Made by a program: the position numbers and the translations under genes. Shown here piece after piece: positions 1,447 through 58,791 of a DNA stretch of 64,000 bases. Every line of letters starts with the position of its first letter. Position 1 is the stretch's first letter. The DNA is from Pyrinomonadaceae bacterium (GTDB taxonomy: Bacteria; Acidobacteriota; Blastocatellia; Pyrinomonadales; Pyrinomonadaceae). The stretch spans positions 17,845 through 81,844 of the forward strand of contig DASVTS010000050.1 of assembly GCA_036387455.1 (NCBI GenBank), written 5' to 3'. The notes under the pieces are model-generated. The model made no database searches. It was not told the DNA's origin and saw only the letters and a list, made by a program, of their open reading frames with translations.

Positions 1447-1522
1447 GGATGAAGGTGAAGGCGGAGGGATGAAGTCCGGACGGCACGCCTTCCGTCCTTC
1501 GTCCTTCCGCCTTCACCCTTCC
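1447..1522. repeat. hairpin built from tandem heptamers (GAAGG-type left arm, CCTTCNN x5 right arm) abutting the Shine-Dalgarno of the 1534 gene
   Basis: The right arm is CTTCCGT CCTTCGT CCTTCCG CCTTCAC CCTTCC (1489-1522). The left arm GGATGAA GGTGAAG GCGGAGG GATGAAG (1447-1474) is its imperfect complement. An inner GGACGG/CCGTCC pair is present. The element ends 1 nt before GAGGAGGG (1523-1530). Confidence 0.7.
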
Positions 1523-11678: not shown

Positions 11679-11765
11679 GCCGTGAACCGTGAACCGTGAA
11701 CCGTAAACCGTGACGAGAGAAAGACGATTCTTTCTTGTCACGGTTTACGGTTCACGGTTCACGGC
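11679..11765. repeat. CCGTRAA-class heptamer hairpin between the aryl-CoA ligase stop and the thioesterase start
   Basis: The left arm is CCGTGAA x3, CCGTAAA, CCGTGAC (11680-11714). The right arm is GTCACGG TTTACGG TTCACGG TTCACGG (11737-11764). The stem is about 35 bp and the arms differ by one heptamer. The ligase TGA stop (11752-11754) lies inside the right arm. Confidence 0.8.
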
Positions 11766-13305
11766 TTTTCAATTTCTTCCTGTCAATCTTCCCGCGGTCG
11801 TTCTTGGGGAGCGAGGTGACGAACTCGACCCAGCGGGGGTACTTGTAGAGGGCGAGGTGGGACTTGACGAAGTCCTTAATCGCCTGCGCCAGCTCGTCGC
11901 CGGCGTCGTGGCCGTCGCGGAGGACGAGGAAGGCTTTGGGCTTGACGAGGCCGTCGCCGGCGTCGTGGCCGACGACCGCGGCTTCGAGCACGGCCTCGTG
12001 CGCGAGCAGGCAGTTCTCTATCTCGGCCGGCGCGACGAAGACGCCCGAGACCTTGAGCATGTCGTCCGTCCGTCCGTGGTACCAGAAGTAGCCCTCCCCG
12101 TCGAAGTGGAACTGGTCGCCCGTCGTGCACCAGTCGCCCGCGAAGGTCTGCTTCGACTTCTCGTGCGCCTGCCAGTAGCAGAGCGCCGCCGAGTCGCCGC
12201 GGACGCGCAGCGTGCCCATCTCGCCGGCGGGCAGCGCGCGCCCCTCGGCGTCCACCACCTCGGCCTCGTACCCTCGGACGACGCGGCCGAGGCTGCCGGG
12301 CCTGACGTCGCCGGGGCGGTTCGTGATGTAGATGTGGAACATCTCGGCCGAGCCGATGCCGTCGTAAATCTCGACGCCGAAGGTCTCGACCCAGCGGCGG
12401 TACAGCTCCTCGGGCAGCGCCTCGCCCGCCGAGAGGCACATGCGCAGCGAGGACAAATCTCGCCCGGCCGCGCCGTCCATGTTGAGCATGCCGTTTATCA
12501 TCGTGGGCACGCTCGTCAGGATGGTCGGGCGGTGGCGCTCGATGACCTCGAACAGCTTCTCGGGCGTCGAGCGCTCGGGGAAGAGCGCGGTGGCGCCGCC
12601 CGCGGCGAAGGGGAAGAGGAGGTTCGTCCCCGTGGCGTAGCCGAAGAAGAGCTTGGGGACGGAGACGGTCAGGTCGTCCTCCGAGACGCCGAGCACGCCT
12701 TTGGCGTAGCACTCGGTGTTGTAGGGCAGGTCGTGCTGCAAGTGCACGGCGCCCTTCGGGTGACCCGTCGAGCCGGAGGTGAAGAGCCAGATGGCGACGT
12801 CGTCGCGGTGCAGGTCGGCGGGCGTGAGTTCGTCCGCCTGGGCGGCGACGGCCTCGGCGAAGGAGTGGAAGCGCCCGCGCTCCCCGCCGACGACGAAGAC
12901 GCCGCGCAGGTGCTTCGCGTTGCGGGCCGCCTGCGCGAAGTTCTCGAGCAAAGACTCGTGGATGACGGCGACGCGGGCGCGCGTGTATTCGAGGTAGTAG
13001 CGGTAGTCGTCGGCCGGCAGCAGCGGGTTGACCATCGTGATGACGCCGCCCGCGCGGTTCGCCCCGAACCACGACCAGACGAACTCCGGGCAGTCGGGCA
13101 GCGCGAGCAGCACGCGGTCTTCCACGCCGAGCCCCGCCTCGCGCAGCGCCCCGCCCGCGCGGTTCGACAGCCGCGCCGCCTCGCCGTAGGTGTAGGTCTC
13201 GTCGCCGTAGTAGAGGCAGGTCTTACCCTCGCGCCCCTCCTCCACGTTGTGGTAGAGGAAGTAGTCGCTCATGCGGAACCGCTCGGGGAACTCGACGTCA
13301 GGCAT
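11752..13305 (-). CDS. aryl-CoA ligase of the benzoate-CoA ligase family (candidate anthranilate/2-aminobenzoate-CoA ligase)
   Basis: 517 aa. It has the AMP-binding P-loop LFTSGSTGHPKGAVH, KLFFGYATG, and TGDQFHFDGEGYFWYHGRTDDMLKVSG. Substrate specificity is not readable from the sequence; the anthranilate suggestion comes only from the kynA/kynU neighbours. Confidence 0.8.
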   Translation of the reverse strand: MPDVEFPERFRMSDYFLYHNVEEGREGKTCLYYGDETYTYGEAARLSNRAGGALREAGLGVEDRVLLALPDCPEFVWSWFGANRAGGVITMVNPLLPADDYRYYLEYTRARVAVIHESLLENFAQAARNAKHLRGVFVVGGERGRFHSFAEAVAAQADELTPADLHRDDVAIWLFTSGSTGHPKGAVHLQHDLPYNTECYAKGVLGVSEDDLTVSVPKLFFGYATGTNLLFPFAAGGATALFPERSTPEKLFEVIERHRPTILTSVPTMINGMLNMDGAAGRDLSSLRMCLSAGEALPEELYRRWVETFGVEIYDGIGSAEMFHIYITNRPGDVRPGSLGRVVRGYEAEVVDAEGRALPAGEMGTLRVRGDSAALCYWQAHEKSKQTFAGDWCTTGDQFHFDGEGYFWYHGRTDDMLKVSGVFVAPAEIENCLLAHEAVLEAAVVGHDAGDGLVKPKAFLVLRDGHDAGDELAQAIKDFVKSHLALYKYPRWVEFVTSLPKNDRGKIDRKKLKSREP

Positions 13306-17869: not shown

Positions 17870-18073
17870 TCACGGGCGCTTCCTCATCTTGTCCTTCAAC
17901 TCGGGGTGGCGAGCGAGGAATGCCCCACGCCTCACTTTATAGACGCCGGGCTTGAGCATGTCGTCGTCCGTCCACCCCCGCTTTAAGCCCGCCTCATACT
18001 CCTCCTGGGTGACCACCCATTCGAACTCTTCGAGGGCAGGCTCCTCGGTTTGCTCATCTTCCTCGTTCTTCAT
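17870..18073 (-). CDS. small acidic protein in the antitoxin position downstream of brnT (atypical, no recognisable RHH)
   Basis: 67 aa beginning MKNEEDEQTEEPALEEFEW... Its ATG overlaps the last 20 nt of brnT. Its GC content is visibly lower than the surrounding genes. Confidence 0.55.
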   Translation of the reverse strand: MKNEEDEQTEEPALEEFEWVVTQEEYEAGLKRGWTDDDMLKPGVYKVRRGAFLARHPELKDKMRKRP

Positions 18074-18332
18074 ATTGTTTCCGTTCGGCTGGCGTCGGCA
18101 GGCGCGCCGAGATGATGCGAATCAAGTCGCCCCGTCCTTCGGTAAAGACGATGAACAGCATGCGTCTGGACGAATACCCAACGGCGAAGAACCGCGTCTC
18201 ATCATGAGAATGGCCCACGTCCGCGTCCGTCACAAGGTTCGGGTCGTTGAAGACCTCGGCGGCCTCTTCGAAGCTCACCCAGTGCTTGCGCAGGTTGGCG
18301 GCCGCCTTCGCTTCGTCCCACTCGAATCTCAC
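18054..18332 (-). CDS. brnT: BrnT-family (DUF497) ribonuclease toxin
   Basis: The C-terminal 92 aa of the 275-aa track ORF, from the GTG at 18332, read VRFEWDEAKAAANLRKHWVSFEEAAEVFNDPN...RIISARLPTPAERKQY, which is the typical BrnT pattern. The upstream Arg/Pro-rich extension was rejected. Confidence 0.8.
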   Translation of the reverse strand: MRFEWDEAKAAANLRKHWVSFEEAAEVFNDPNLVTDADVGHSHDETRFFAVGYSSRRMLFIVFTEGRGDLIRIISARLPTPAERKQYEERGR

Positions 18333-18442
18333 TCGGCTGAGTGCAGCCTTTCTTAAGCTGTTCGGGAGTGACGTTGGCGGACGCCGTCTAGAGTATAGCC
18401 TCGGGGAATTTGAATGGCTACTTTCGCGGGCAGGAGGGGCGG

Positions 18443-18886
18443 TTACTCGTCGCGGAGGATGCGGCCGATTTCGCGGTCGGCGTCGATGGGGGATTTGCGG
18501 AAGGAGGGCGAGGGCGCTTTGAGGTTGTAGGCGGCGATGCGGCGGTTGAGGTCGGCGACCTGGCGGCGGAAGTCTTCGGTGACGCGGCGCCAGTCGGCCT
18601 CGGCGCGCGGGGCCGCGCGGCGCGACTTGAGGCTCTCGCGGTAGGCGTTGCGCGAGCGCAGGAGGTCTGCGCGCGCGCCGTCGAGCGCGGCCCCCAGTTC
18701 CTCGCCCTCCCGAATCCACGGCAGCGCGAGCAGGTTGTTCTTGAAGATGCGGAGGGTGGAGCGCGCCACCTGGCCGGCGAGCAGGTCGCGCCCGGCCCGC
18801 GTCGCGCCGGGCGCCGCGCGCAGGGCGCCGGGGCCGCGCCGCAGCCCGCCCCTGAACACCCAGCCGAAAATCTCTTCCCACTTCAT
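18443..18886 (-). CDS. DUF1992 (DnaJC28-like) domain protein
   Basis: 147 aa from the internal ATG at 18886 (MKWEEIFGW...). The motifs NNLLALPWIREGEEL and RRIAAYNLKAPS are typical of DUF1992. The upstream part of the track ORF was rejected. Confidence 0.65.
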   Translation of the reverse strand: MKWEEIFGWVFRGGLRRGPGALRAAPGATRAGRDLLAGQVARSTLRIFKNNLLALPWIREGEELGAALDGARADLLRSRNAYRESLKSRRAAPRAEADWRRVTEDFRRQVADLNRRIAAYNLKAPSPSFRKSPIDADREIGRILRDE

Positions 18887-20219: not shown

Positions 20220-21215
20220 ATGGCGATACTTGTGACGGGCGGCGCCGGGTACATCGGCAGCGTGATGGTCGACCAGTTGGCGGAGGCGGGCGAGGAGGTC
20301 GTCGTGCTCGACGACGTCTCGCGCGGGCACCGGGGGGCGCTCGCCGGGGGCGCCCGCTTCTACGAGGGGCGCGTCGGCGACCGCGAGCTGGTCGAGCGCG
20401 TCTGCCGCGAGCACGCGGTCGAGGCGTGCATCCACTTCGCCGCGCTCGCCTACGTCGGCGAGTCGGTGACCGACCCGCGGCTCTACTTCGAGAACAACGT
20501 CTCGCAGGGGTTGGGCCTGCTCGGCGGGCTGCTCGCCGCGGGCGTCAAGCGCTTCGTCTTCTCCTCGACCTGCGCCACCTACGGCGAGCCGGTTCGCGTC
20601 CCCATCGACGAGGGCCACCCGCAGTGGCCCGTCAACCCCTACGGCTGGTCGAAGTTCTTCATGGAGCGCATCCTCGAATCCTACGACCGCGCCTACGGCC
20701 TGCGCTTCGTCGCGCTGCGCTACTTCAACGCCGCGGGCGCGACCGAGCGGAGGGGCGAGAACCACGAGCCGGAGACGCACCTCATCCCGAACGTGCTGGC
20801 GGCGGCGGCCGGGCGCCTGCCCTTCGTCTCGGTCTTCGGCGGCGACTACCCGACGCCCGACGGCACCTGCGTGCGCGACTACATCCACGTCACCGACCTC
20901 TGCTCGGCGCACACGCTCGCGCTCGAGTACCTGCGCGGCGGCGGAAAGTCCGAGTTCATCAACCTCGGCACCGGGCACGGCTACTCGGTGATGGAGGTCA
21001 TCGAGGCGGCGCGGCGCGTGACGGGCAGGCCCATCGAGGTGAGGATGGAGGCGTCGCGCGCGGGCGACCCGGCGCGGCTCGTCGCCGACGCCGCGAAGGC
21101 GCGCGAGGTTCTGGGCTGGCAAACGCGCCACACCGAGCTTGAGGAGATAGTCCGCACCGCCTGGGCGTGGCACGAAGCGCACCCCGAGGGCTACGCCGCA
21201 CCAAAACCCGCCTGA
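20220..21215 (+). CDS. galE: UDP-glucose 4-epimerase
   Basis: 331 aa with the Rossmann motif [10 protein letters not shown] and catalytic YGWSK (YxxxK). The overall GalE layout is present. Confidence 0.9.
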
Positions 21216-21269
21216 GCCGGTAACGCCCTGCTCAAGTCCTCTTCATCAAACGTAATTCTTAAGCAAATA

Positions 21270-21479
21270 ATCGTGATTGCAAGCCTTTCCATCGTGATTG
21301 CAAAGCTTGCAATCACGATGGAAAAGCCTGAAATCGCGGTGGAGAAGCTTAAAATCGTAGTTGCAAGGCTTGAAATCGTGATTGTAAAGCTCGAAATCAC
21401 GATTTCGAGCTTTACAATCACGATTTTGAAGCTTTCCGCCGCGATGGAAAAGCCCGGAATCACGATTTTCGTGGCGTCC
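21270..21479. repeat. array of ten exactly phased 21-bp units (consensus about ATCRYGATTGnAAAGCTTnAA) with nested long palindromes; low GC
   Basis: Units start at 21270, 21291, 21312, 21333, 21354, 21375, 21396, 21417, 21438 and 21459. By my count 96 of 210 bases are G/C. A 13-bp stem with a 3-nt loop lies at 21291-21319, and a 54-nt near-perfect palindrome lies at 21373-21426. The ends carry a 10-bp inverted repeat, AATCGTGATT (21269-21278) and AATCACGATT (21458-21467). Confidence 0.9.
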
Positions 21480-21484
21480 ACCCG

Positions 21485-22393
21485 CTACCGCGGGTCTTGA
21501 CCTGTCTCGCGCTTCGCGTTCGCGCCGAGCCCGCAGCTGTGCGAGCCGAAGGAGCGGCCGAGCGCGCGGACTTCGGCCTCGACCTGCGGGAGCGTCTTGC
21601 GCGTCTGGCGGCCCATGAGGTAGTCGGCGAGCGAACTCATGAAGAACTGCCGGAGGGCGGCGGCGGCGGCGAGCGTGCGCGGGACGTAGACCTTGCGCTT
21701 GCGCCGCTCGACGGCGCGGACGAACGCCTCGGCGCAGTCGCGCAAAGGCGTCACGCGGCCGAAGGGGCCGGGCAGCTTCCCCAGCATCTCCCTGAAGCCG
21801 GCGAGGTCGCTCTGCGCGTCGCGCACGAGGTCGGTGTCCACCCACGAGGGGTGAGCGACGCCGACGGCGACGCCCTTGTGCGCCAGCTCAAGCCTGAGCA
21901 CGTTTCCGAACTGCTCGACGCCGCTCTTGGCCGCGGCGTAGGTCGAGATGCCGGGGAAGGGCGCGATGGCCGCCGCCGAGGAGACGAGCAGGTAGTAGCC
22001 CCGCCGCTCGACGACGTGCGGCAGCGTCGCGCTGACCGTGCGGACGACGCCCGTCAGGTTGACCTCGATGGTGCGGACGAGCGCCTCGACGGGGCCGACC
22101 GCGACGGTGCCGTTGCTGGCGACGCCCGCGTTGGCGACGACCACGTCAATCCCGCCGAGCGCCTCGACCGTCCCGGCCGCCGCGCGTTCGAGCGCCGCCT
22201 GGTCGGTCACGTCGCACTCGAACCAGACGTGCCCGCCGCCCAGCTCGGCCGCCAGCGCGGCCAGAAGCTCCGGCTCAAGCCCGACGAGCGAGAGGCGCGC
22301 GCCGCGCGCCGCGAGCAGGCGCGCAGTCTCCGCGCCGATGCCGCGCGCGGGGCCGGTGATGAGCACGACCTTGCCGGAGATTTGATAGTTCAA
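21485..22393 (-). CDS. short-chain dehydrogenase/reductase (SDR)
   Basis: 302 aa with the cofactor motif ITGPARGIG and catalytic STYAAAKSG (YxxxK). The TTG start overlaps the stop of the upstream esterase (TTGA). Confidence 0.85.
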   Translation of the reverse strand: MNYQISGKVVLITGPARGIGAETARLLAARGARLSLVGLEPELLAALAAELGGGHVWFECDVTDQAALERAAAGTVEALGGIDVVVANAGVASNGTVAVGPVEALVRTIEVNLTGVVRTVSATLPHVVERRGYYLLVSSAAAIAPFPGISTYAAAKSGVEQFGNVLRLELAHKGVAVGVAHPSWVDTDLVRDAQSDLAGFREMLGKLPGPFGRVTPLRDCAEAFVRAVERRKRKVYVPRTLAAAAALRQFFMSSLADYLMGRQTRKTLPQVEAEVRALGRSFGSHSCGLGANAKRETGQDPR

Positions 22394-23505
22394 GGGGCGG
22401 CCTCCTCATGCATGACTTCCCGGCGCGCGCGGGCGCGCGCGGGGGCGGGGCGTTCGAGCAGTTCGCGCCAGTCGCGCGCGACCTCGGCGAGGCGGCGGCC
22501 CGCGGCCGGGCAGACGCCGGTCATGTTGATGAACCCGTGCGCGAGCGAAGGGAAGGGACGCCACACGACGAGGTTGTCCGCATCTTCCAGCGCACGCGCG
22601 TAGGCGTCGCCCTCGTCGCGCAGGTAGTCGAAGCCGGCCGTGACGACGAGCGCGGGCGCGAGCCCCGAGAGGTCGGGCGCGCGCAGGGGCGAGACGAGCG
22701 GGTCTTCGCGGCGCACGCCCGTCCCCCCGGTGTAGTGGTCGAAGAAGGCGTCGCAGTCCGTGCGCGCGAGGAAGTAGCCGCGGCCGAAGAGCTTCTTCGA
22801 CGGCCACTCCTCGCTGGTGACGTCGGTCGCGGGGTAGATGAGCAGTTGGGCGGCGGGCGGGCGGTCGCGCGCCGCGAGCTGCGCCACGACGGCCGCGAGG
22901 TTGCCGCCCGCGCTGTCGCCCCCGACCGAGACGCGCGCGGGGGAGGTGACGCCGAGCGCCCCGGCGTTCGCCTGCGCCCAGCGCAGCGCGGCCAGCGCGT
23001 CGTCCAGCCCCCCGCGGAAGGGGTGCTCGGGCGCGAGGCGGTATTCGACGCTGAGGACGTGCGTCCGCGCGTGCAGGCAGAGCAGGCGGCACGGCTCGTC
23101 GTGCGTCTCAAGGTCGCCGATGACGAAGCCGCCGCCGTGCAGGTAGACGAGCAAGTCCCTCGAACGGGCCGGCGGCGCGTAGTGCCGCACGCGCAGGGGG
23201 CCGCCCTCGACCTCGATTTCGAAGGTGTTGACGGGGCCGACGCGCGTCTTCTTCCCCTGGTAGAGGAGCACCTCGCGGCGGAAGCGCGCGCGCGCCGTGA
23301 CCGGGTCGGGCTCGCAGAGTCCGAGGCGCTTGCGCTTGCGGTTGACGGCGAGGATGAGTTGCAGGCACGTGTCGAGCGTCTGCCCGTCAACCACGATTGG
23401 CGGCCGGCGCAGGAGCCCGCGCTGCACGCCCTCCGGCAGGCTGCCGAGCGACCGCCCGGCGAACCCCTGAAGACGCTCTTTGAGTGTGAAGTCCAGGTCG
23501 GGCAT
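22390..23505 (-). CDS. alpha/beta hydrolase, hormone-sensitive-lipase-type esterase (family IV)
   Basis: 371 aa with the oxyanion motif HGGGFVIGD and the nucleophile elbow GDSAGGN. Confidence 0.85.
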   Translation of the reverse strand: MPDLDFTLKERLQGFAGRSLGSLPEGVQRGLLRRPPIVVDGQTLDTCLQLILAVNRKRKRLGLCEPDPVTARARFRREVLLYQGKKTRVGPVNTFEIEVEGGPLRVRHYAPPARSRDLLVYLHGGGFVIGDLETHDEPCRLLCLHARTHVLSVEYRLAPEHPFRGGLDDALAALRWAQANAGALGVTSPARVSVGGDSAGGNLAAVVAQLAARDRPPAAQLLIYPATDVTSEEWPSKKLFGRGYFLARTDCDAFFDHYTGGTGVRREDPLVSPLRAPDLSGLAPALVVTAGFDYLRDEGDAYARALEDADNLVVWRPFPSLAHGFINMTGVCPAAGRRLAEVARDWRELLERPAPARARARREVMHEEAAP

Positions 23506-31553: not shown

Positions 31554-31675
31554 GAAAAGCCGTAAACCGTAAACCGTGAACCGTGACGAGAAGAAGCACC
31601 TGCTTTCTCCCGTCACGGTTCACGGTTTACGGCTTTTCCTTGTCACGGTTTACGGTTTACGGTTCACGGTTTTTA
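31554..31675 (+). terminator. CCGTRAA-class heptamer hairpin with one left arm, two alternative right arms and a T5 run, starting 1 nt after the SLT gene stop
   Basis: The left arm is GAAAAGCCGTAAACCGTAAACCGTGAACCGTGACGAGAAGAAGCA (31554-31598). Right arm 1 is TGCTTTCTCCCGTCACGGTTCACGGTTTACGGCTTTTC (31601-31638). Right arm 2 is GTCACGGTTTACGGTTTACGGTTCACGG (31642-31669), followed by TTTTT. Confidence 0.75.
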
Positions 31676-36053: not shown

Positions 36054-36139
36054 AGCCACGGAGACACAGAGGCACAGAGAATTAGAAAGGGAATGTCTTA
36101 AACCCTTCCTAACTTCTGTGCCTCTGTGTCTCCGTGGCT
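36054..36139. repeat. long hairpin (25-bp perfect core) between convergent EamA and leuS stops
   Basis: AGCCACGGAGACACAGAGGCACAGA (36054-36078) pairs perfectly with TCTGTGCCTCTGTGTCTCCGTGGCT (36115-36139). The stem extends imperfectly (GAATTAGAAAGGG / CCCTTCCTAACT). The arm contains ACACAGAG and GCACAGAG in tandem. Confidence 0.8.
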
Positions 36140-45306: not shown

Positions 45307-45373
45307 AGGGGCTAGGGGCTAGTTAAGAGTTAATCTCCTAACTAGCCCCTGGCCCCTAGCCCCTAGCCCCTAG
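45307..45373 (+). terminator. CCCCTAG-class heptamer hairpin 6 nt after the pilT stop
   Basis: The left arm is AGGGGCTAGGGGCTAGTTAAGAG (45307-45329). The right arm is CTCCTAACTAGCCCCTGGCCCCTAGCCCCTAGCCCCTAG (ending 45373), with four tandem CT(A/G)GCCC units against two in the left arm. It is followed by TTTGCTTTTGCC. Confidence 0.7.
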
Positions 45374-45511: not shown

Positions 45512-48118
45512 ATGAAAGAGTGTCCGGCCTGTCATCGCTGCTTCGCAGACCAGCTCAACCACTGTCCGAGCGACGGTGACCGCCTGAATTTTCTCATCAG
45601 CCTCGACACCACGCTCGACGAGCGCTACCTGCTGGAGCGCAAGCTCGGGCAGGGCGGCATGGGGCTCGTCTTCAAGGCGCACCACAAGTTCATCAAGACG
45701 CAGCACGCCATCAAGGTCATCCTCCCCGACCTCGTCGGCAACGACCCCTCGCTCGTCGCGCGCTTCCGCCAGGAGGCGATGGCCGCGGCCGCCATCCGCC
45801 ACCCCAACACCGTCAGCGTCACCGACTACGGCATCCTCGGCGGGACGACCCCCTACCTCGTGATGGAGTTCGTCGAGGGGCGCTCGCTCCACGACCTCCT
45901 CTCCGAGGAGAAGCGCCTGACGCCCGAGGCGGCCGTCGAAATCATGCTCGCCGTCTGCGCGGGCGTCGCCGCCGCGCACCGGCAAGGGATAGTCCACCGC
46001 GACCTCAAGCCCCTGAACATCATGCTCCGCCCCGGGGTGCCGCCGGGCGAGAGTTTGAAGGTGCTCGACTTCGGGCTCGCTAAAATCAAATCGGGCGAGC
46101 TGCTCGGCTCCTTCGTCGCGGCGCAGACGCAGGGGATGATGGGCTCGCCCTTCTACATGGCGCCCGAGCAGTGGGGCGACGATGACATCGACGTCCGCGC
46201 CGACATCTACAGCCTGGGCGTCATCCTCTACCAGATGATCGCGGGCGACGTGCCCTTCAAGGGCAAGTCCGTCCCCTCGATTATGAGCATGCACCTCAAC
46301 GCGGCGCCCGTCCCGCTCGCGGAGCGCGGGGTGGAGGTGCCGCCGCCCTTGGAGCGCGCCGTCCGGCACGCGCTCGAAAAAGACCCCGAGAAGCGCCCGC
46401 ACTCGGTCGAGGAGTTCGCGGCGGAGCTGCGCGAGGCCATGCCGCAACTGAACGGCAACGCGGCCCTGCGCGAGCCCGGCGCGACGACCGTGCAGATCGG
46501 CCCCGCCGACACGACCGGCCTCAAGGGCGGCGGGGGGCACACGACGGGCGCGCAGGCCGGGAGCCAGGAGAACCTGAACACCGTCGCCGGCTCGCCCGGC
46601 GTGCTCGACACGGGCGCGCTCGAAGAGGCGCCCGCGCGGCCCGGCGCGTCCACCGTCGCGGAGTTCCCCGCGGCGCACGGCGCCGACACGGCCAGCCACG
46701 GCCGCGCGCAGCAGACCGTCGGCGGTTTCGGCGCGGGCGGCGGCGCGTCCACACAGCACGGCTCCCAGGAGGCGCTGACCGAGCCGCTGCCCGCCTCGCC
46801 CGAAGCGCTCCGCGCCCTCGAAGAGAGTCGAAACGCGGAGGCTTTGCGCCGCCGCGAAGAGGAGGAGCGGCTCGCGCGGCAGGCCGAAGAGCGCGCGCGG
46901 CTCGAAGCGCAGGAGCGGGAGCGGGCGGAGGCCGAGCAGCGCCGCCGTCAGGAGGCGGAAGCGCAGCAGCGCCGCGAGGCCGAAGAGCAGCAGAGGCGTC
47001 TTGCCGAAGAGCGGCAGAGGCTTGAGGCGGAAGAGCGCGAGCGGCGCGAGCTTGAGGAGCGCAGGCGGCGCGAGGCGGAAGAGAATCGGCGGCGCGAGGC
47101 CGAGGAGCGGGCGGCGCGGGACGAGCGCGCGGCGGCACCCGCGGCCGGCGCCGCCGCCGCCCCGGCGCGTTCGCGCGGGCCGCTCGTCGCGGTCGGGGCG
47201 GTCGTCCTGCTGGCGCTGCTCGCCGTCGCCGGCGTCGGCGGCTACCTTCTGCTCCGCCGCCCCGGCTCGCAGAACACGAACGGCGCGGCCAACGCGAACG
47301 CGGCGGCGGACGTCAACGCCAACGCTAACGCCGCGGTCGGCGGCGCGAACGAGAACGGCGGCGGCACTTCGGCGCGCGCGGACCTGCTCTGGATTCCCGG
47401 CGGCAGCTTCCAGATGGGGCGGTCGGACGTGCCCCCGATCACGGACGAGCTGAAGTCGCGCCGCGCGGCGTACCTGCTCTGGATGTACAGCCAGTGGCCC
47501 GCGCACGAGGTCAGCGTCGGCCCGTTCGCCATCGACCGGACGGAGGTCACCAACGCCGAGTACGCCGACTTCGTCAAGGAGACGGGGCACGCGCCCCCGC
47601 CCGGCGTCTGGGAGGGCGAAGGGCCGGGCGAAGGTCTCGCGCGGCTGCCCGTCTCGAACGTCACCTACGAGGACGCGCGCGCGTTCGCGGCGTGGCGCTC
47701 GAAGCGCGACGGCGTGACCTACCGCCTGCCGACCGAGGAGGAGTGGGAGTACGCGGCGCGCGGCGGCGACTCGGCGCGCGCCTACCCGTGGGGGCCGGAG
47801 TGGTCGCCCGGCTACGCCAACCTCGGCGGCGCGGGCGCGGCGCCCGTCGGCTCGTTTCCGCTGGGGCGGACGCCGCAGGGGCTCGACGACATGATCGGCA
47901 ACGTCTGGGAGTGGACGTCCTCCGAGGCTTCGATGTACAAAGGTAACGACCGGACGGCGCTCGCCGCGGAAGACCGCGGCAAGGTGGTCGCGCGCGGCGG
48001 CTCCTTCAAGAGCCGGCCCGACGGCGACGAGCCCGTCACCGTCACCGCGCGCCGCTGGCTCCCGCGCGGCTTCCGCGACCCCGTCCTCGGCTTCCGCCTC
48101 GTGCGCGCCGAACAGTGA
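45512..48118 (+). CDS. Ser/Thr protein kinase fused to a Glu/Arg-rich coiled coil, a TM segment and a C-terminal FGE-sulfatase (SUMF1-like) domain
   Basis: 868 aa. It starts with a Cys4 ribbon (MKECPACHRCF...HCPSDG). The Hanks kinase motifs are HRDLKPLN, DFGLAK and PFYMAPE. An ER-rich stretch (about residues 430-530) precedes the TM segment LVAVGAVVLLALLAVAGVGGYLLL. The FGE-type C-terminus has DRTEVTNAEYADF, YRLPTEEEWEYAARGG and RGGSF. Confidence 0.85.
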   Translation: MKECPACHRCFADQLNHCPSDGDRLNFLISLDTTLDERYLLERKLGQGGMGLVFKAHHKFIKTQHAIKVILPDLVGNDPSLVARFRQEAMAAAAIRHPNTVSVTDYGILGGTTPYLVMEFVEGRSLHDLLSEEKRLTPEAAVEIMLAVCAGVAAAHRQGIVHRDLKPLNIMLRPGVPPGESLKVLDFGLAKIKSGELLGSFVAAQTQGMMGSPFYMAPEQWGDDDIDVRADIYSLGVILYQMIAGDVPFKGKSVPSIMSMHLNAAPVPLAERGVEVPPPLERAVRHALEKDPEKRPHSVEEFAAELREAMPQLNGNAALREPGATTVQIGPADTTGLKGGGGHTTGAQAGSQENLNTVAGSPGVLDTGALEEAPARPGASTVAEFPAAHGADTASHGRAQQTVGGFGAGGGASTQHGSQEALTEPLPASPEALRALEESRNAEALRRREEEERLARQAEERARLEAQERERAEAEQRRRQEAEAQQRREAEEQQRRLAEERQRLEAEERERRELEERRRREAEENRRREAEERAARDERAAAPAAGAAAAPARSRGPLVAVGAVVLLALLAVAGVGGYLLLRRPGSQNTNGAANANAAADVNANANAAVGGANENGGGTSARADLLWIPGGSFQMGRSDVPPITDELKSRRAAYLLWMYSQWPAHEVSVGPFAIDRTEVTNAEYADFVKETGHAPPPGVWEGEGPGEGLARLPVSNVTYEDARAFAAWRSKRDGVTYRLPTEEEWEYAARGGDSARAYPWGPEWSPGYANLGGAGAAPVGSFPLGRTPQGLDDMIGNVWEWTSSEASMYKGNDRTALAAEDRGKVVARGGSFKSRPDGDEPVTVTARRWLPRGFRDPVLGFRLVRAEQ

Positions 48119-48846: not shown

Positions 48847-48850
48847 AGAA

Positions 48851-48964
48851 GGCAAAAGTAAAAAGGCAAAAGGCAAAAGTGAGGAGGGAACTTATTTCAA
48901 AGTTCCGCGCGCCGCAGGCGCGTCCACACTTTTGCCTTTTGCCTTTTGCCTTTTTGCCTTTTCC
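48851..48964. repeat. GGCAAAA-class heptamer hairpin with a structured loop, between convergent stops
   Basis: The left arm is GGCAAAA GTAAAAA GGCAAAA GGCAAAA GTG (48851-48881). The right arm is CAC TTTTGCC TTTTGCC TTTTGCC TTTTTGCC TTTTCC (48926-48964). The loop holds two small hairpins, GGAACTT/AAGTTCC (48887-48906) and CGCGCC/GGCGCG (48908-48922). Confidence 0.8.
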
Positions 48965-58035: not shown

Positions 58036-58111
58036 TGGAGCCACCTTGCGGACTTGAACCGCAGACCTGTCGATTACGAATCGACTGCTCTACCAACTGA
58101 GCTAAGGTGGC
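58036..58111 (-). tRNA. tRNA-Thr (anticodon CGU), CCA encoded
   Basis: The minus strand reads GCCACCT-TA-GCTC-AGTTGGTA-GAGC-A-GTCGA-TTCGTAA-TCGAC-AGGTC-TGCGG-TTCAAGT-CCGCA-AGGTGGC-T-CCA. It is 76 nt with a perfect cloverleaf and anticodon CGT. Confidence 0.95.
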
Positions 58112-58126
58112 TCAATTGATGCGGAG

Positions 58127-58156
58127 ACTATACGGAGACGCCGCGCGTGATGTCAA
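58127..58156 (-). promoter_or_regulatory. near-consensus sigma-70-type promoter for tRNA-Thr
   Basis: On the minus strand this reads TTGACA (58156-58151), 18 nt, TATAGT (58132-58127). The -10 box ends 15 nt before the mature tRNA 5' end. Confidence 0.6.
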
Positions 58157-58191: not shown

Positions 58192-58791
58192 ATGCCAAAG
58201 GATCGAGCTGAAGTCCAGGACCAGTACAAGATCGGCGGCGGTTCGTTGAACGAGTACGAGTACGAGCAGAGCAAGGGCGAGTACGAGGAGCAGGCGCACC
58301 AGACGCCGGAGGAGGCGCCGGTCGAGGGCCTGCGCGGGGCGGCCGAGCCGGGCCTGCCGCAGAACGTGGCCGAGCGCATCCGCCAAGTCGAGGAGCGCGC
58401 GCACGAAATAGTCGAGCGCCGGAGGGCGAAGCAGGGGGGCGGGAAGACCGCCGTGAAGCCCGCCGCCGCGGCGAAGGCGTCCGCGAAGGCGTCGGCGAAG
58501 AAGGCGGCGAAGGGCGCGGCCGGCGGGGCTTCGAAGTCCCGGGCCACGAAGAAGGGCGCGGGCAGGTCGGGCGCGGCGAAGTCCGGCGGCGCCAAGTCCG
58601 GCGGCGCCAGGTCCGGCGCGAAGAAAGGCGGGGCGAATAAAGGCGCGGCCAAAGCCTCTTCGAAAAAGGGCGGCGCCGGAGGCTCTTCTAAGAAAGGTGG
58701 CGCGGCGAAGAAGGCGGGCGGCGCGAAGGGCTCTGGTAAGAAGGCCGGCGCGAAGAAGGGTGCGGCGAAGAAGGCCGGTCCGCGCAGGTAG
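58192..58791 (+). CDS. protein with an acidic N-terminal half and a histone-H1-like Lys/Ala/Gly-rich C-terminal tail
   Basis: 199 aa. The N-terminus is PKDRAEVQDQYKIGGGSLNEYEYEQSKGEYEEQ... The C-terminal 110 aa are AKK/GAKK/SGGAK repeats (KPAAAAKASAKASAKKAAKGAAGG...KKAGAKKGAAKKAGPRR). Confidence 0.65.
   Translation: MPKDRAEVQDQYKIGGGSLNEYEYEQSKGEYEEQAHQTPEEAPVEGLRGAAEPGLPQNVAERIRQVEERAHEIVERRRAKQGGGKTAVKPAAAAKASAKASAKKAAKGAAGGASKSRATKKGAGRSGAAKSGGAKSGGARSGAKKGGANKGAAKASSKKGGAGGSSKKGGAAKKAGGAKGSGKKAGAKKGAAKKAGPRR

What the first reader, a model, noticed from the sequence alone, without database searches (positions are those of the whole stretch)
21270..21479. Ten exactly phased 21-bp repeats with nested palindromes forming a low-GC island between galE and an SDR gene
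The convergent intergenic region is almost entirely a 210-bp array whose units start every 21 nt without a single phase slip. Each unit pairs an ATCRYGAT core (itself a dyad: ATCGTGAT/ATCACGAT) with an AAGCTT-like core, giving a consensus of about ATCRYGATTGnAAAGCTTnAA. The array is 46 percent G+C by my count in a genome of roughly 70 percent. It contains a 13-bp stem hairpin (21291-21319) and a 54-nt near-perfect palindrome (21373-21426, a 26-bp stem). CGATGGAAAAGCC is repeated directly at 21316-21328 and 21442-21454. A 10-bp terminal inverted repeat (AATCGTGATT / AATCACGATT) bounds the whole array. A 21-bp period equals two helical turns, so all cores face the same side of the DNA, as in iteron or centromere-like (parC-type) protein-binding arrays. 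Alternatives are a MITE-like insertion, a structured RNA, or a cruciform-forming terminator. Both strands are open across it and would encode heptad-repeat peptides (IVIAKLA ITMEKPE IAVEKLK ...), which the 21-nt period produces automatically.
Basis: seen in the sequence. Interest (0 to 1): 0.75.

Follow-up and report, generated by a model that had tools for sequence, protein, structure and literature searches.

The report
Phased 21-bp palindromic repeat array
A real, AT-rich block of eleven exactly phased 21-bp palindrome-bearing repeats has replaced a pirin gene between two convergent genes in an uncultured soil Acidobacterium; similar arrays occur in at least four other Acidobacteriota genomes, match no described repeat family, and have no known function.

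Summary
Window 21249-21479 holds eleven in-phase 21-bp units: ten clear ones and one degenerate. Each has an ATCRYGAT core and an AAGCTT-like centre. G+C is 46% in a 70% genome, and the array sits between galE (+) and an SDR gene (-).

It is a derived feature. Two sister lineages and an outgroup carry a 287-aa pirin gene at this position.

It did not arise by recent slippage of one unit. Units differ at about 0.27 sites from their consensus, while the lineage split is only dS 0.25.

Four other Acidobacteriota MAGs carry the same kind of array, with core ATCGCGAT, an AAGCYT centre and low G+C. They sit at unrelated loci and share no neighbouring gene. Across 63 units there are 391 substitutions and no phase slip.

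- It is not coding.
- It matches no Rfam family.
- It has no plasmid or phage match.
- It has no adjacent Rep or Par gene.

My best reading is a low-copy, REP/BIME-like mosaic palindromic element that forms long hairpins at gene 3' ends. Its conserved 12-bp palindrome is probably a protein recognition site. Function is inferred, not shown. Iteron or parC membership is not supported.

The parts
21249..21269 (.). Degenerate eleventh unit (AACGTAATTCTTAAGCAAATA), in phase with the array. This is its left edge.
   Evidence: Row listing. It matches the family consensus at A1, C3, G4, A7, T8, T9 and AAGC at positions 13-16. Positions 5 and 6 differ by transitions.
21270..21479 (.). Ten phased 21-bp units. 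Each has an ATCRYGAT core (positions 1-8) and an AAGCTT-like centre (about positions 12-18). G+C is 45.7%.
21272..21338 (.). First large hairpin or cruciform. Arms are 21272-21303 / 21307-21338 at 88%. The inner perfect 13-bp arms are 21291-21303 / 21307-21319, with loop AGC.
   Evidence: I6, I7. Present in the minimum-free-energy folds of both strands.
21333..21445 (.). Second large hairpin or cruciform. Arms are 21333-21383 / 21395-21445 at 78%. The inner perfect 26-bp arms are 21373-21398 / 21401-21426. The deviant cores of units 4 and 9 (ATCGCGGT and GCCGCGAT) face each other and match at 7 of 8 positions.
   Evidence: I2, I4; folds; sequence read.
21228..21251 (-). Possible remnant of the 3' end of the lost pirin gene (GCTCAAGTCCTCTTCATCAAACG, against GCTCAGTCCTCCCAGACG in L002). 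The similarity is weak and includes indels.
   Evidence: Alignment; L002 sequence.
21480..21495 (.). Small G+C-rich hairpin ACCCGC-TACC-GCGGGT at the right edge. It overlaps the SDR stop codon (21485-21487).
   Evidence: Sequence; paired in the folds.
20220..21215 (+). galE (UDP-glucose 4-epimerase). Its stop codon is 33 bp before the array.
   Evidence: Pfam; source name.
21485..22393 (-). SDR oxidoreductase. Its stop codon is 5 bp from the array. Its last ~11 codons (21485-21518) differ from the sister lineage.
   Evidence: Pfam; homology break at 21519.
21191..21481 (-). 96-aa ORF called as a gene by JGI and NCBI. Judged non-coding.
   Evidence: G+C at third codon positions is at most 0.60, against 0.96 in galE. 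No Pfam match. No homologues. Related arrays in L085 and L101 have no ORF of 80 aa or more.

Best explanation
**What it is.** The array is one copy of a low-copy family of AT-rich, mosaic palindromic tandem repeats found in Acidobacteriota. Each 21-bp module holds a 12-bp palindrome, (G)W-ATCGCGAT-W(C), and an AAGCTT-like centre half a period away. Modules occur in both orientations, so stretches of the array are long inverted repeats.

**How it got here.** The array entered this lineage already diversified, by transposition-like movement or by recombination with foreign DNA. It took the place of a pirin gene between galE and the SDR gene.

**How it probably works (inferred).**
- It is transcribed from both convergent genes.
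- It folds into very stable long hairpins at their 3' ends.
- There it would act as a barrier to read-through and to 3' exonucleases, as REP/BIME clusters do.
- The conserved palindrome at a strict two-turn spacing is probably the recognition site of a trans-acting protein encoded elsewhere. That protein could be a recombinase that spreads the element or a nucleoid protein.

**Shown here:** the anatomy, the family, the derived state, the non-coding status and the fold potential.

**Inferred only:** transcription, barrier function and protein recognition.
For: **Family**
- L074, L085, L091 and L101, all labelled Acidobacteriota (two as Pyrinomonadaceae or gp4), carry 12-17 phased units.
- They share the core, W at position 9 and AAGCYT at about positions 12-18. 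Only the core was imposed by the search.
- Array G+C is 38-48% in loci of 54-65% G+C.
- A profile of 3-unit windows scores only these five arrays strongly in 1.39 Mb of held DNA.

**Derived state**
- L002 and L004 (galE 94% amino-acid identity) and L143 (88%) have pirin convergent on galE.
- dS is 0.25 between window and L002, and 0.46 and 0.39 to L143.

**Arrived pre-diverged**
- Units are on average 59% identical to each other and differ at 0.27 sites from their own consensus. That is more than in-situ decay could produce within the time since the split.

**Palindrome and phase**
- Flank pairs at positions ±1 and ±2 are complementary in 76% and 73% of cores, against 57% and 59% in shuffles. 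A..T and T..A versions both occur.
- There is no phase slip in 63 units despite 391 substitutions.

**Hairpin potential**
- Minimum free energy is -131.7 kcal/mol (+) and -136.1 kcal/mol (-), with z-scores of -11.7 and -13.2. The related arrays behave the same way.

**Position at gene 3' ends**
- In L074 and L085 the array lies between a stop codon and an intrinsic-terminator-like site.
- In L091 it lies between two genes on the same strand.
- In this window at least six other long hairpins with repeat-built arms occur. Most lie 1-14 bp after stop codons, and one fills a convergent gap in the same way.

**Not coding, not a known RNA**
-.
Against: - No transcript or 3'-end data exist for this organism.
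- The terminator scan finds nothing in the array.
- In L074 and L085 a separate terminator follows the array, so the array is not needed for termination there.
- There is no covariation across the AAGCTT centre, so hairpins centred there are not visibly selected.
- The REP-defining GTAG or CGTC tag is absent. Copy number looks low: one locus in 64 kb, and none in 52 related galE loci.
- In L101 the array lies between divergent ORFs, which is not a 3' end.
- The event here is a replacement, not a clean insertion. No target-site duplication or defined element ends were found.
- No candidate binding protein or transposase was identified.
Confidence: 0.4

Rival explanations
1. It is a phased operator array. 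A symmetric (dimeric) DNA-binding protein encoded elsewhere binds each GW-ATCGCGAT-WC palindrome. The sites are spaced at exactly two helical turns, so the dimers line up on one face and form a nucleoprotein filament. Such a filament could act as an insulator, a silencer, a supercoiling or condensin-type site, or a centromere-like site. On this view the hairpin potential is a side effect.
For: - The specific core sequence is conserved across genomes of 54-70% G+C, while the spacers vary.
- Phase is strictly kept: no slip in 63 units with 391 substitutions. Hairpin formation alone would not require this.
- Covariation is confined to the flanks of the core and is absent across the AAGCTT centre.
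- The core and AAGCTT centres are 10 or 11 bp apart, which places both on the same helical face (read).
- The array is the most AT-rich spot in the window, as sites bound by nucleoid proteins often are.
Against: - No DNA-binding gene is linked to any of the five loci.
- The site is not positionally conserved. Close relatives have a pirin gene there instead.
- The window's own array has no perfect ATCGCGAT.
- Isolated sites are absent from the rest of the 64 kb, so there is no sign of a regulon.
- The search pattern imposed the core. Whether ATCGCGAT is special among 21-bp arrays in general could not be tested.
Confidence: 0.3
2. It is a functionless leftover. Foreign or selfish repeat DNA filled the gap when the pirin gene was deleted, and it persists only because it is harmless between two convergent genes.
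For: - It is a lineage-specific gain coupled to a gene loss.
- Units are degenerate, and deviations in the core are mostly transitions at the CpGs.
- There is no linked gene, no consistent orientation to neighbouring genes across loci, and no known family.
Against: - Phase is kept without indels across five arrays.
- Low G+C is maintained in hosts of 54-70% G+C.
- The core palindrome is conserved between genera.
- The array is identical in two strains, but that test has little power.
Confidence: 0.17
3. It is the iteron or partition-centromere array of an integrated plasmid or phage remnant.
For: The unit length (21 bp), the tandem phasing and the dyad cores resemble iterons and sopC/parC-type centromeres (resemblance from general knowledge; anatomy).
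Against: - No rep, par or other mobile-element genes lie within the syntenic block.
- Only about 270 bp differ from the relatives.
- blastn finds nothing in 72,556 plasmids or 50,697 phages.
- A family-pattern scan of viral contigs gave only 3 chance hits and no arrays.
- There is no GC-skew switch at the site.
Confidence: 0.05
4. It encodes a small heptad-repeat protein: the 96-aa ORF on the minus strand, or the 75-aa ORF on the plus strand.
For: - Both ORFs are open.
- JGI and NCBI call the 96-aa ORF as a gene.
- It starts 3 nt after the SDR stop codon, in the slot where pirin sits in relatives.
Against: - G+C at third codon positions is at most 0.60, against 0.96 in galE.
- There is no Pfam match. 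Two database searches found no homologue.
- The arrays in L085 and L101 have no ORF of 80 aa or more.
- Translations of the arrays cross-match on both strands without any strand consistency.
- L074 has a 1-nt phase slip inside its array.
Confidence: 0.03

Closest known systems
REP / BIME clusters (repetitive extragenic palindromes and bacterial interspersed mosaic elements of Enterobacteria and Pseudomonas; GTAG/CGTC-tagged REP superfamilies, PMC3733652)
   Same: - Short palindromic modules clustered in tandem and in both orientations.
- Extragenic position, often at 3' ends or between convergent genes.
- They form long hairpins when adjacent units pair.
- Sub-families carry complementary changes in the stem.
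- Presence varies between close lineages.
   Different: - No unpaired GTAG or CGTC tag.
- The period is a strict 21 bp.
- The palindrome is only 12 bp and AT-rich, in a 70% G+C genome.
- Apparent copy number is low: one locus in 64 kb, and none in about 270 kb of related loci.
- The same core is conserved across genera, whereas REP sequences are usually specific to a species or genus.
- No RAYT gene was seen.
Plasmid iterons and partition centromeres (for example F sopC with 12 x 43-bp repeats each holding an inverted repeat, or R1 parC with 10 x 11-bp repeats; from general knowledge)
   Same: Tandem, phased repeats with dyad cores, at a spacing equal to an integral number of helical turns, suited to cooperative protein binding on one face.
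   Different: - The context is chromosomal and syntenic with relatives.
- There is no adjacent rep or par gene.
- There is no plasmid or phage similarity.
- Units are much more degenerate.
- Members sit at unrelated metabolic loci.
Short tandemly repeated heptamer sequences of cyanobacteria, Beggiatoaceae and Xanthomonas (STRR; TAACTGA repeats, PMC4679880; heptameric G4 repeats, PMC4692102)
   Same: Intergenic tandem repeats whose unit length is 7 or a multiple of 7. This window also holds many hairpins whose arms are heptamer repeats.
   Different: The 21-bp unit is not three heptamers. It has a dyad core and alternating orientation. Those families consist of direct repeats of one heptamer.

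Membership tests
REP/BIME | Imperfect palindromic modules, clustered in alternating orientation, extragenic | tested here: met
   Core orientation along the array runs F F R s F F R R s R (F forward, R reverse, s symmetric or deviant), read. Inverted repeats. The array lies in the convergent intergenic gap.
REP/BIME | Unpaired GTAG (or CGTC) tag at one end of each module (PMC3733652) | tested here: not met
   Read: GTAG occurs only once, inside the deviant core of unit 5. CGTC occurs only once, in the last unit. Neither recurs per unit.
REP/BIME | High copy number dispersed over the genome | tested here: inconclusive
   One locus in 64 kb. No further array in 1.39 Mb of held loci.
REP/BIME | Cognate RAYT (Y1/HUH transposase) gene in the genome | not testable with these tools
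   Only the window and short loci are held. None of the ORFs scanned against Pfam (window flanks and related loci) matched a transposase family.
Iteron / partition centromere (parC, sopC type) | Tandem phased repeats with dyad symmetry | tested here: met
Iteron / partition centromere (parC, sopC type) | Adjacent gene for the cognate Rep, ParB, ParR or RHH protein | tested here: not met
   The neighbours are glyoxalase, ABM, galE, SDR, esterase and FMO. No protein is shared among the five loci.
Iteron / partition centromere (parC, sopC type) | Located on a plasmid, phage or integrated element | tested here: not met
   The block is syntenic with relatives apart from about 270 bp. No plasmid or phage match. 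No arrays in viral contigs.
MITE | Distinct terminal inverted repeats plus a target-site duplication, with empty sites in relatives differing only by the insertion | tested here: not met
   The 'TIR' 10-mer recurs internally. The relatives' site holds an 864-bp pirin gene, so this is a replacement. No duplication was seen at the boundaries.
CRISPR array | Repeats of 24-48 bp separated by unique spacers of similar length | tested here: not met
   The period is 21 bp, with 8-12 bp conserved and 9-13 bp semi-conserved.
Intrinsic terminator | G+C-rich stem followed by a T run | tested here: not met
   The scan found 0 terminator-like sites in 20800-21900.
Any Rfam family | Score at or above the family's gathering threshold | tested here: not met
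   Only sub-threshold miRNA-precursor hairpin models matched, at 36 bits or less against thresholds of 50-117. In the whole window only one tRNA passes.
Protein-coding gene (heptad-repeat protein) | Host-like codon usage, homologues, and an ORF conserved in related arrays | tested here: not met

The most novel reading that the evidence does not exclude
The arrays are movable, phylum-wide landing pads for an unidentified symmetric DNA-binding protein of Acidobacteriota. Dimers bind GW-ATCGCGAT-WC every two helical turns and build a one-faced nucleoprotein filament. This would be a chromosomal, insulator- or centromere-like device that can be gained at new intergenic sites, here at the cost of a pirin gene. 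If 21-bp arrays with the same core in other phyla turn out to be the same kind of thing (Thermoanaerobaculia L049/L083, Anaerolineae H89_878), the class would be much broader.
Probability: 0.2. Interest if true: 0.75.

Novelty: new variant of a known kind. Interest (0 to 1): 0.5.

Why it matters
Acidobacteriota are among the most abundant soil bacteria, and almost nothing is known about their non-coding DNA.

A repeat family that holds an exact two-helical-turn register through about 30% sequence divergence points to a constraint acting on the DNA itself. That constraint is most likely an unknown protein that reads a 12-bp palindrome. The family also keeps its low G+C in hosts of up to 70% G+C and appears at new loci.

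The array gives a ready-made bait for finding that protein. It also gives a clean natural experiment on what such an element does to two convergent transcripts, because one lineage has the array and its sister has pirin.

If it is only a REP-like hairpin element, it still extends that class to a new phylum, with an unusual architecture and no GTAG/CGTC tag.

Tried and rejected
- **Rfam.** E-value mode on 20500-22500 gave only weak hairpin (miRNA) models. Gathering mode on the whole window gave only one tRNA.
- **Coding.** Pfam found nothing for either ORF. The exact sequences are not in the protein collection. Two homology searches, with the 96-aa ORF and the L074 ORF, were empty.
- **Plasmids and phages.** blastn in distant mode found nothing.
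- **Three-core pattern scan of the genome collection**.
  - About 108 of the 138 pattern hits (genome and viral scans together) lie inside long ORFs, or are unrelated repeats such as His/Asp-rich coding repeats and Nostoc arrays.
  - The raw hit count therefore says nothing about a universal ATCGCGAT element.
- **More specific patterns.** They were too insensitive on the known arrays to justify a scan.
- **Viral contigs.** A family pattern gave 3 chance hits.
- **galE relatives in metagenomes.** 52 loci, none with an array.
- **Shared neighbouring protein among the five loci.** None.
- **Origin or terminus signal.** No GC-skew switch.
- **Strand asymmetry of RNA folds against transcription direction.** Two of three loci fitted, which is not informative.
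- **Covariation across the AAGCTT centre.** None.
- **Literature.** Searches for ATCGCGAT, 21-bp repeats and acidobacterial REPs found no description of this element.

Full report
**1.

Written in rows of 21 nt from 21270, the sequence gives ten units with no phase slip. Nine of them start with ATC.
- Seven cores are ATCGTGAT or its reverse complement ATCACGAT. The other three are ATCGCGGT, ATCGTAGT and GCCGCGAT.
- The preceding row, 21249-21269 (AACGTAATTCTTAAGCAAATA), is an eleventh, degenerate unit in the same phase. The array is therefore 231 bp long.
- G+C is 0.457 against 0.700 for the window. It is the most AT-rich spot in the 64 kb.

TRF reports period 21 with score 87.

The motif is far above chance and is confined to this locus.
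- ATCRYGATNNNNAAGCTT with up to 2 mismatches: 9 matches against 0.37 expected.
- WATCRYGATW: 5 matches against 0.10 expected.

The named palindromes are real and larger than described.
- The 13-bp arms extend to 32-nt arms at 88% complementarity.
- The perfect 26-bp arms extend to 51-nt arms at 78%.

Either strand folds about 12 standard deviations better than shuffles: -131.7 and -136.1 kcal/mol, with z-scores of -11.7 and -13.2.

galE (20220-21215, +) and an SDR gene (21485-22393, -) converge on the array.

The '10-bp terminal inverted repeat' is only the core plus one base on each side. It also occurs three times internally.

**2. Source and reality**

The flanking proteins are deposited as a 'Pyrinomonadaceae bacterium' MAG. 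The same array is present, base for base, in a second MAG whose flanks are 99.73% identical (L003). It is not an assembly artefact.

**3. The array is a recent gain that replaced a gene**

- A sister lineage (L002 and L004; galE 94% amino-acid identity) has the same gene order: ABM, galE, then SDR, esterase and FMO. It carries a 287-aa pirin gene where the array lies here.
- Nucleotide homology stops at window 21199 and resumes at 21519. A short, indel-ridden stretch at 21228-21251 may be the remnant of the pirin 3' end.
- A more distant relative (L143; galE 88%) also has pirin converging on galE.
- dS is 0.25 between the window and L002. It is 0.46 and 0.39 from each of them to L143. Pirin is therefore ancestral, and the array was gained after the split.
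- None of 52 galE loci recovered from metagenomes has an array.

**4. It did not grow in place from one unit**

- Units are on average only 59% identical to each other. They differ from their own consensus at 0.27 of sites.
- At most about half of dS 0.25 has elapsed on this branch. In-situ decay of a perfect array cannot account for that much divergence.
- The array therefore arrived already diversified. This points to a donor copy and to some form of movement or transfer.
- The mechanism was not established. I found no target duplication and no defined ends, and the event is a replacement rather than a simple insertion.

**5. It belongs to a family**

- Most hits are unrelated. By a stop-free-span criterion, 108 of the 138 pattern hits (genome and viral scans together) lie inside long ORFs, for example His/Asp-rich coding repeats.
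- Four loci are clearly the same kind of element. All are labelled Acidobacteriota: L074 (Pyrinomonadaceae), L085, L091 and L101 (gp4).

What the four share with the window:
- 12-17 phased 21-bp units with core ATCGCGAT. Variants are mostly transitions at the two CpGs.
- A or T at position 9.
- AAGCYT at about positions 12-18.
- G+C of 38-48% in loci of 54-65% G+C.

The AAGCYT element and the low G+C were not imposed by the search. The best colinear three-unit identity between arrays is 0.63-0.87. A profile built from the arrays scores only these five loci strongly in 1.39 Mb of held DNA.

Flanking genes are unrelated across loci:
- urate oxidase and DUF6986;
- PfkB and a LarA-like protein;
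- carbamoyltransferase;
- a TIR-NB-ARC-TPR protein.

The only cross-locus protein similarities are translations of the arrays themselves, on both strands.

**6. What is conserved and what is not**

- Pooling 63 units, T8 is invariant, and A1, C5 and A7 are nearly so.
- The two bases on each side of the core co-vary to keep a 12-bp palindrome, GA-ATCGCGAT-TC or GT-ATCGCGAT-AC. Complementarity is 76% and 73%, against 57% and 59% in within-array shuffles.
- Pairs across the AAGCTT centre show no excess over shuffles.
- The 63 units carry 391 substitutions relative to their array consensus and no phase slip. The only slip seen is at the decaying end of L074.
- From general knowledge, indels run at roughly a tenth of substitutions in unconstrained bacterial DNA. 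Tens of slips would then be expected, so the 21-bp register appears constrained.
- Because 21 is odd, the AAGCTT hexamer sits 10 bp from one neighbouring core and 11 bp from the other. Both arrangements occur within each array, which is why the arrays have no global polarity.

**7. Not coding, not a known RNA, not plasmid-derived**

- The best frame has 0.60 G+C at third codon positions, against 0.96 in galE.
- There is no Pfam match and no homologue in two large protein searches.
- The arrays in L085 and L101 have no ORF of 80 aa or more.
- Rfam gives only sub-threshold generic hairpin hits.
- Nothing matches in plasmid or phage collections or in viral contigs.
- No rep or par gene is nearby.
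- There is no GC-skew switch at the site.

**8. Position and probable mode of action**

- In L074 and L085 the array lies between a stop codon and an intrinsic-terminator-like site on the same strand.
- In L091 it lies between two genes on the same strand.
- In L101 it lies between divergent ORFs.
- Here it fills a convergent gap, 33 bp after the galE stop codon and 5 bp after the SDR stop codon.

The window holds at least six other long, near-perfect hairpins whose arms are tandem 7-8-nt repeats (z-scores -5 to -13). Most start 1-14 bp after a stop codon, and one fills a convergent gap in the same way. Canonical terminators are no more frequent in this genome than in shuffles.

The simplest reading is that the array occupies the same niche: a very stable double-sided stem-loop at gene 3' ends, as REP/BIME clusters do. 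This is an inference. No transcript data exist, and the terminator scan finds nothing in the array.

The sequence-specific, phase-locked palindrome is better explained by recognition at the DNA level by a trans-acting protein. I give that rival 0.3, and I fold part of it into the main explanation as the likely agent of spread or binding.

**9. Comparison with known systems**

- REP/BIME is closest in behaviour (defining features taken from PMC3733652). Membership fails on the GTAG/CGTC tag. It looks doubtful on copy number, and it could not be tested for a RAYT gene.
- Iterons and parC/sopC-type centromeres are similar in architecture. Membership fails on linkage to a cognate gene and on a plasmid or phage setting.
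- MITE, CRISPR, intrinsic terminator, Rfam and coding-gene membership all fail.
- Literature searches found no description of this element.

**10. Verdict**

This is a real and unusual feature, and a new variant of the interspersed palindromic repeat kind. It has a defined family in Acidobacteriota and a clear gain-with-gene-loss history. Its function is unproven.
- Interest: 0.5.
- Most novel reading not excluded: a movable phased binding array for an unknown protein. Probability 0.2, interest 0.75 if true.

Noticed in passing
window 1454-1517, 11683-11768, 31555-31675, 36054-36139, 45307-45357, 48847-48962: Six long, near-perfect hairpins whose arms are tandem 7-8-nt repeats: CCGTGAA/TTCACGG at two separate loci, AAGGCAA/TTGCCTT, AGGGGCT/AGCCCCT, CACAGAG(A)/TCTGTG, and GAAGGnn. 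Free energies are -46 to -69 kcal/mol, with z-scores of -5 to -13. Most begin 1-14 bp after a stop codon, and one fills a convergent gap. They look like a genome-wide class of 3'-end hairpins built from heptamer repeats. Heptamer repeats are known from cyanobacteria, Beggiatoaceae and Xanthomonas (PMC4679880, PMC4692102), but I know of no report from Acidobacteriota.
   Followed up: partly
L002 5134-5997; L004 2271-2609; L143 4499-4585: Close relatives carry a pirin gene (Pirin and Pirin_C domains) downstream of the SDR gene, with only 7 bp between the convergent galE and pirin stop codons. The window lineage has lost it, and its SDR protein has a different C-terminal tail of about 11 residues.
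   Followed up: yes
L049 2979-3238 and L083 2815-3200 (one Thermoanaerobaculia MAG): Two arrays of 13 and 19 units of 21 bp. Each unit has a 14-bp perfect palindrome TAGATCGCGATCTA (so GTAG directly precedes the core) and a 7-bp variable spacer. The two arrays are in opposite orientation, with G+C of 0.47-0.49 in loci of 0.62-0.64. The core and period match the window's family, but the spacer differs. This may be a sister family.
   Followed up: partly
L010, L033, L037, L064, L102 (one Anaerolineae MAG, H89_878): Five loci in one genome carry 21-bp repeats ATCGYGAT + GCTTCACGGGCGC, or the reverse orientation of the spacer. This is another genome-specific 21-bp family with the same core. Whether it is coding was not resolved.
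   Followed up: no
L005, L015, L023, L043, L084, L096, L097, L103, L110, L116, L119 (Nostoc genomes): Two recurrent Nostoc 21-bp tandem repeats, ATCGYGATGTTGATGATGAAT and ATCRTGATTTTGTYAATGAAA, with 6-11 nearly identical units. Several lie outside long ORFs. They are probably unrelated to the acidobacterial family, but they are strikingly frequent among the hits.
   Followed up: no
L061 7088-7230, L072 557-700, L051 1434-1560, L104 3638-3790: Terriglobia, Acidobacteriota and Proteobacteria MAGs share a 21-22-bp repeat, ATCGTGATCACCGATTCCGGC, which slips between periods 21 and 22.
   Followed up: no
window 18054-18881 (-): An ORF with a C-terminal BrnT ribonuclease toxin domain (E=1.8e-24). JGI calls a 92-aa BrnT gene with a 67-aa ORF just downstream of it on the same strand. 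This is probably a BrnT/BrnA toxin-antitoxin pair, 2.4 kb from the array.
   Followed up: no
window 58036-58111 (-) and 58127-58156 (-): tRNA-Thr (CGT), preceded by the best sigma-70-like promoter match in the window (TTGACA-18-TATAGT, 11 of 12) and followed by a terminator-like hairpin at 58027-57991.
   Followed up: no
window 58443-58778 and 46883-47108: Coding-region tandem repeats seen by TRF. The first has 12-48-bp periods rich in GCG/AAG (Ala/Lys-type repeats) inside the ORF at 58192-58791. The second has 24/120-bp periods inside the ORF at 45512-48118.
   Followed up: no
L085 4496-7321: The gene just upstream of the L085 array encodes a TIR, NB-ARC and TPR protein, an architecture like the STAND-type antiviral NTPases. 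In L101 a PLD/NgoFVII-like nuclease lies 0.85 kb from the array. With only two such cases among five loci, this may well be coincidence.
   Followed up: no
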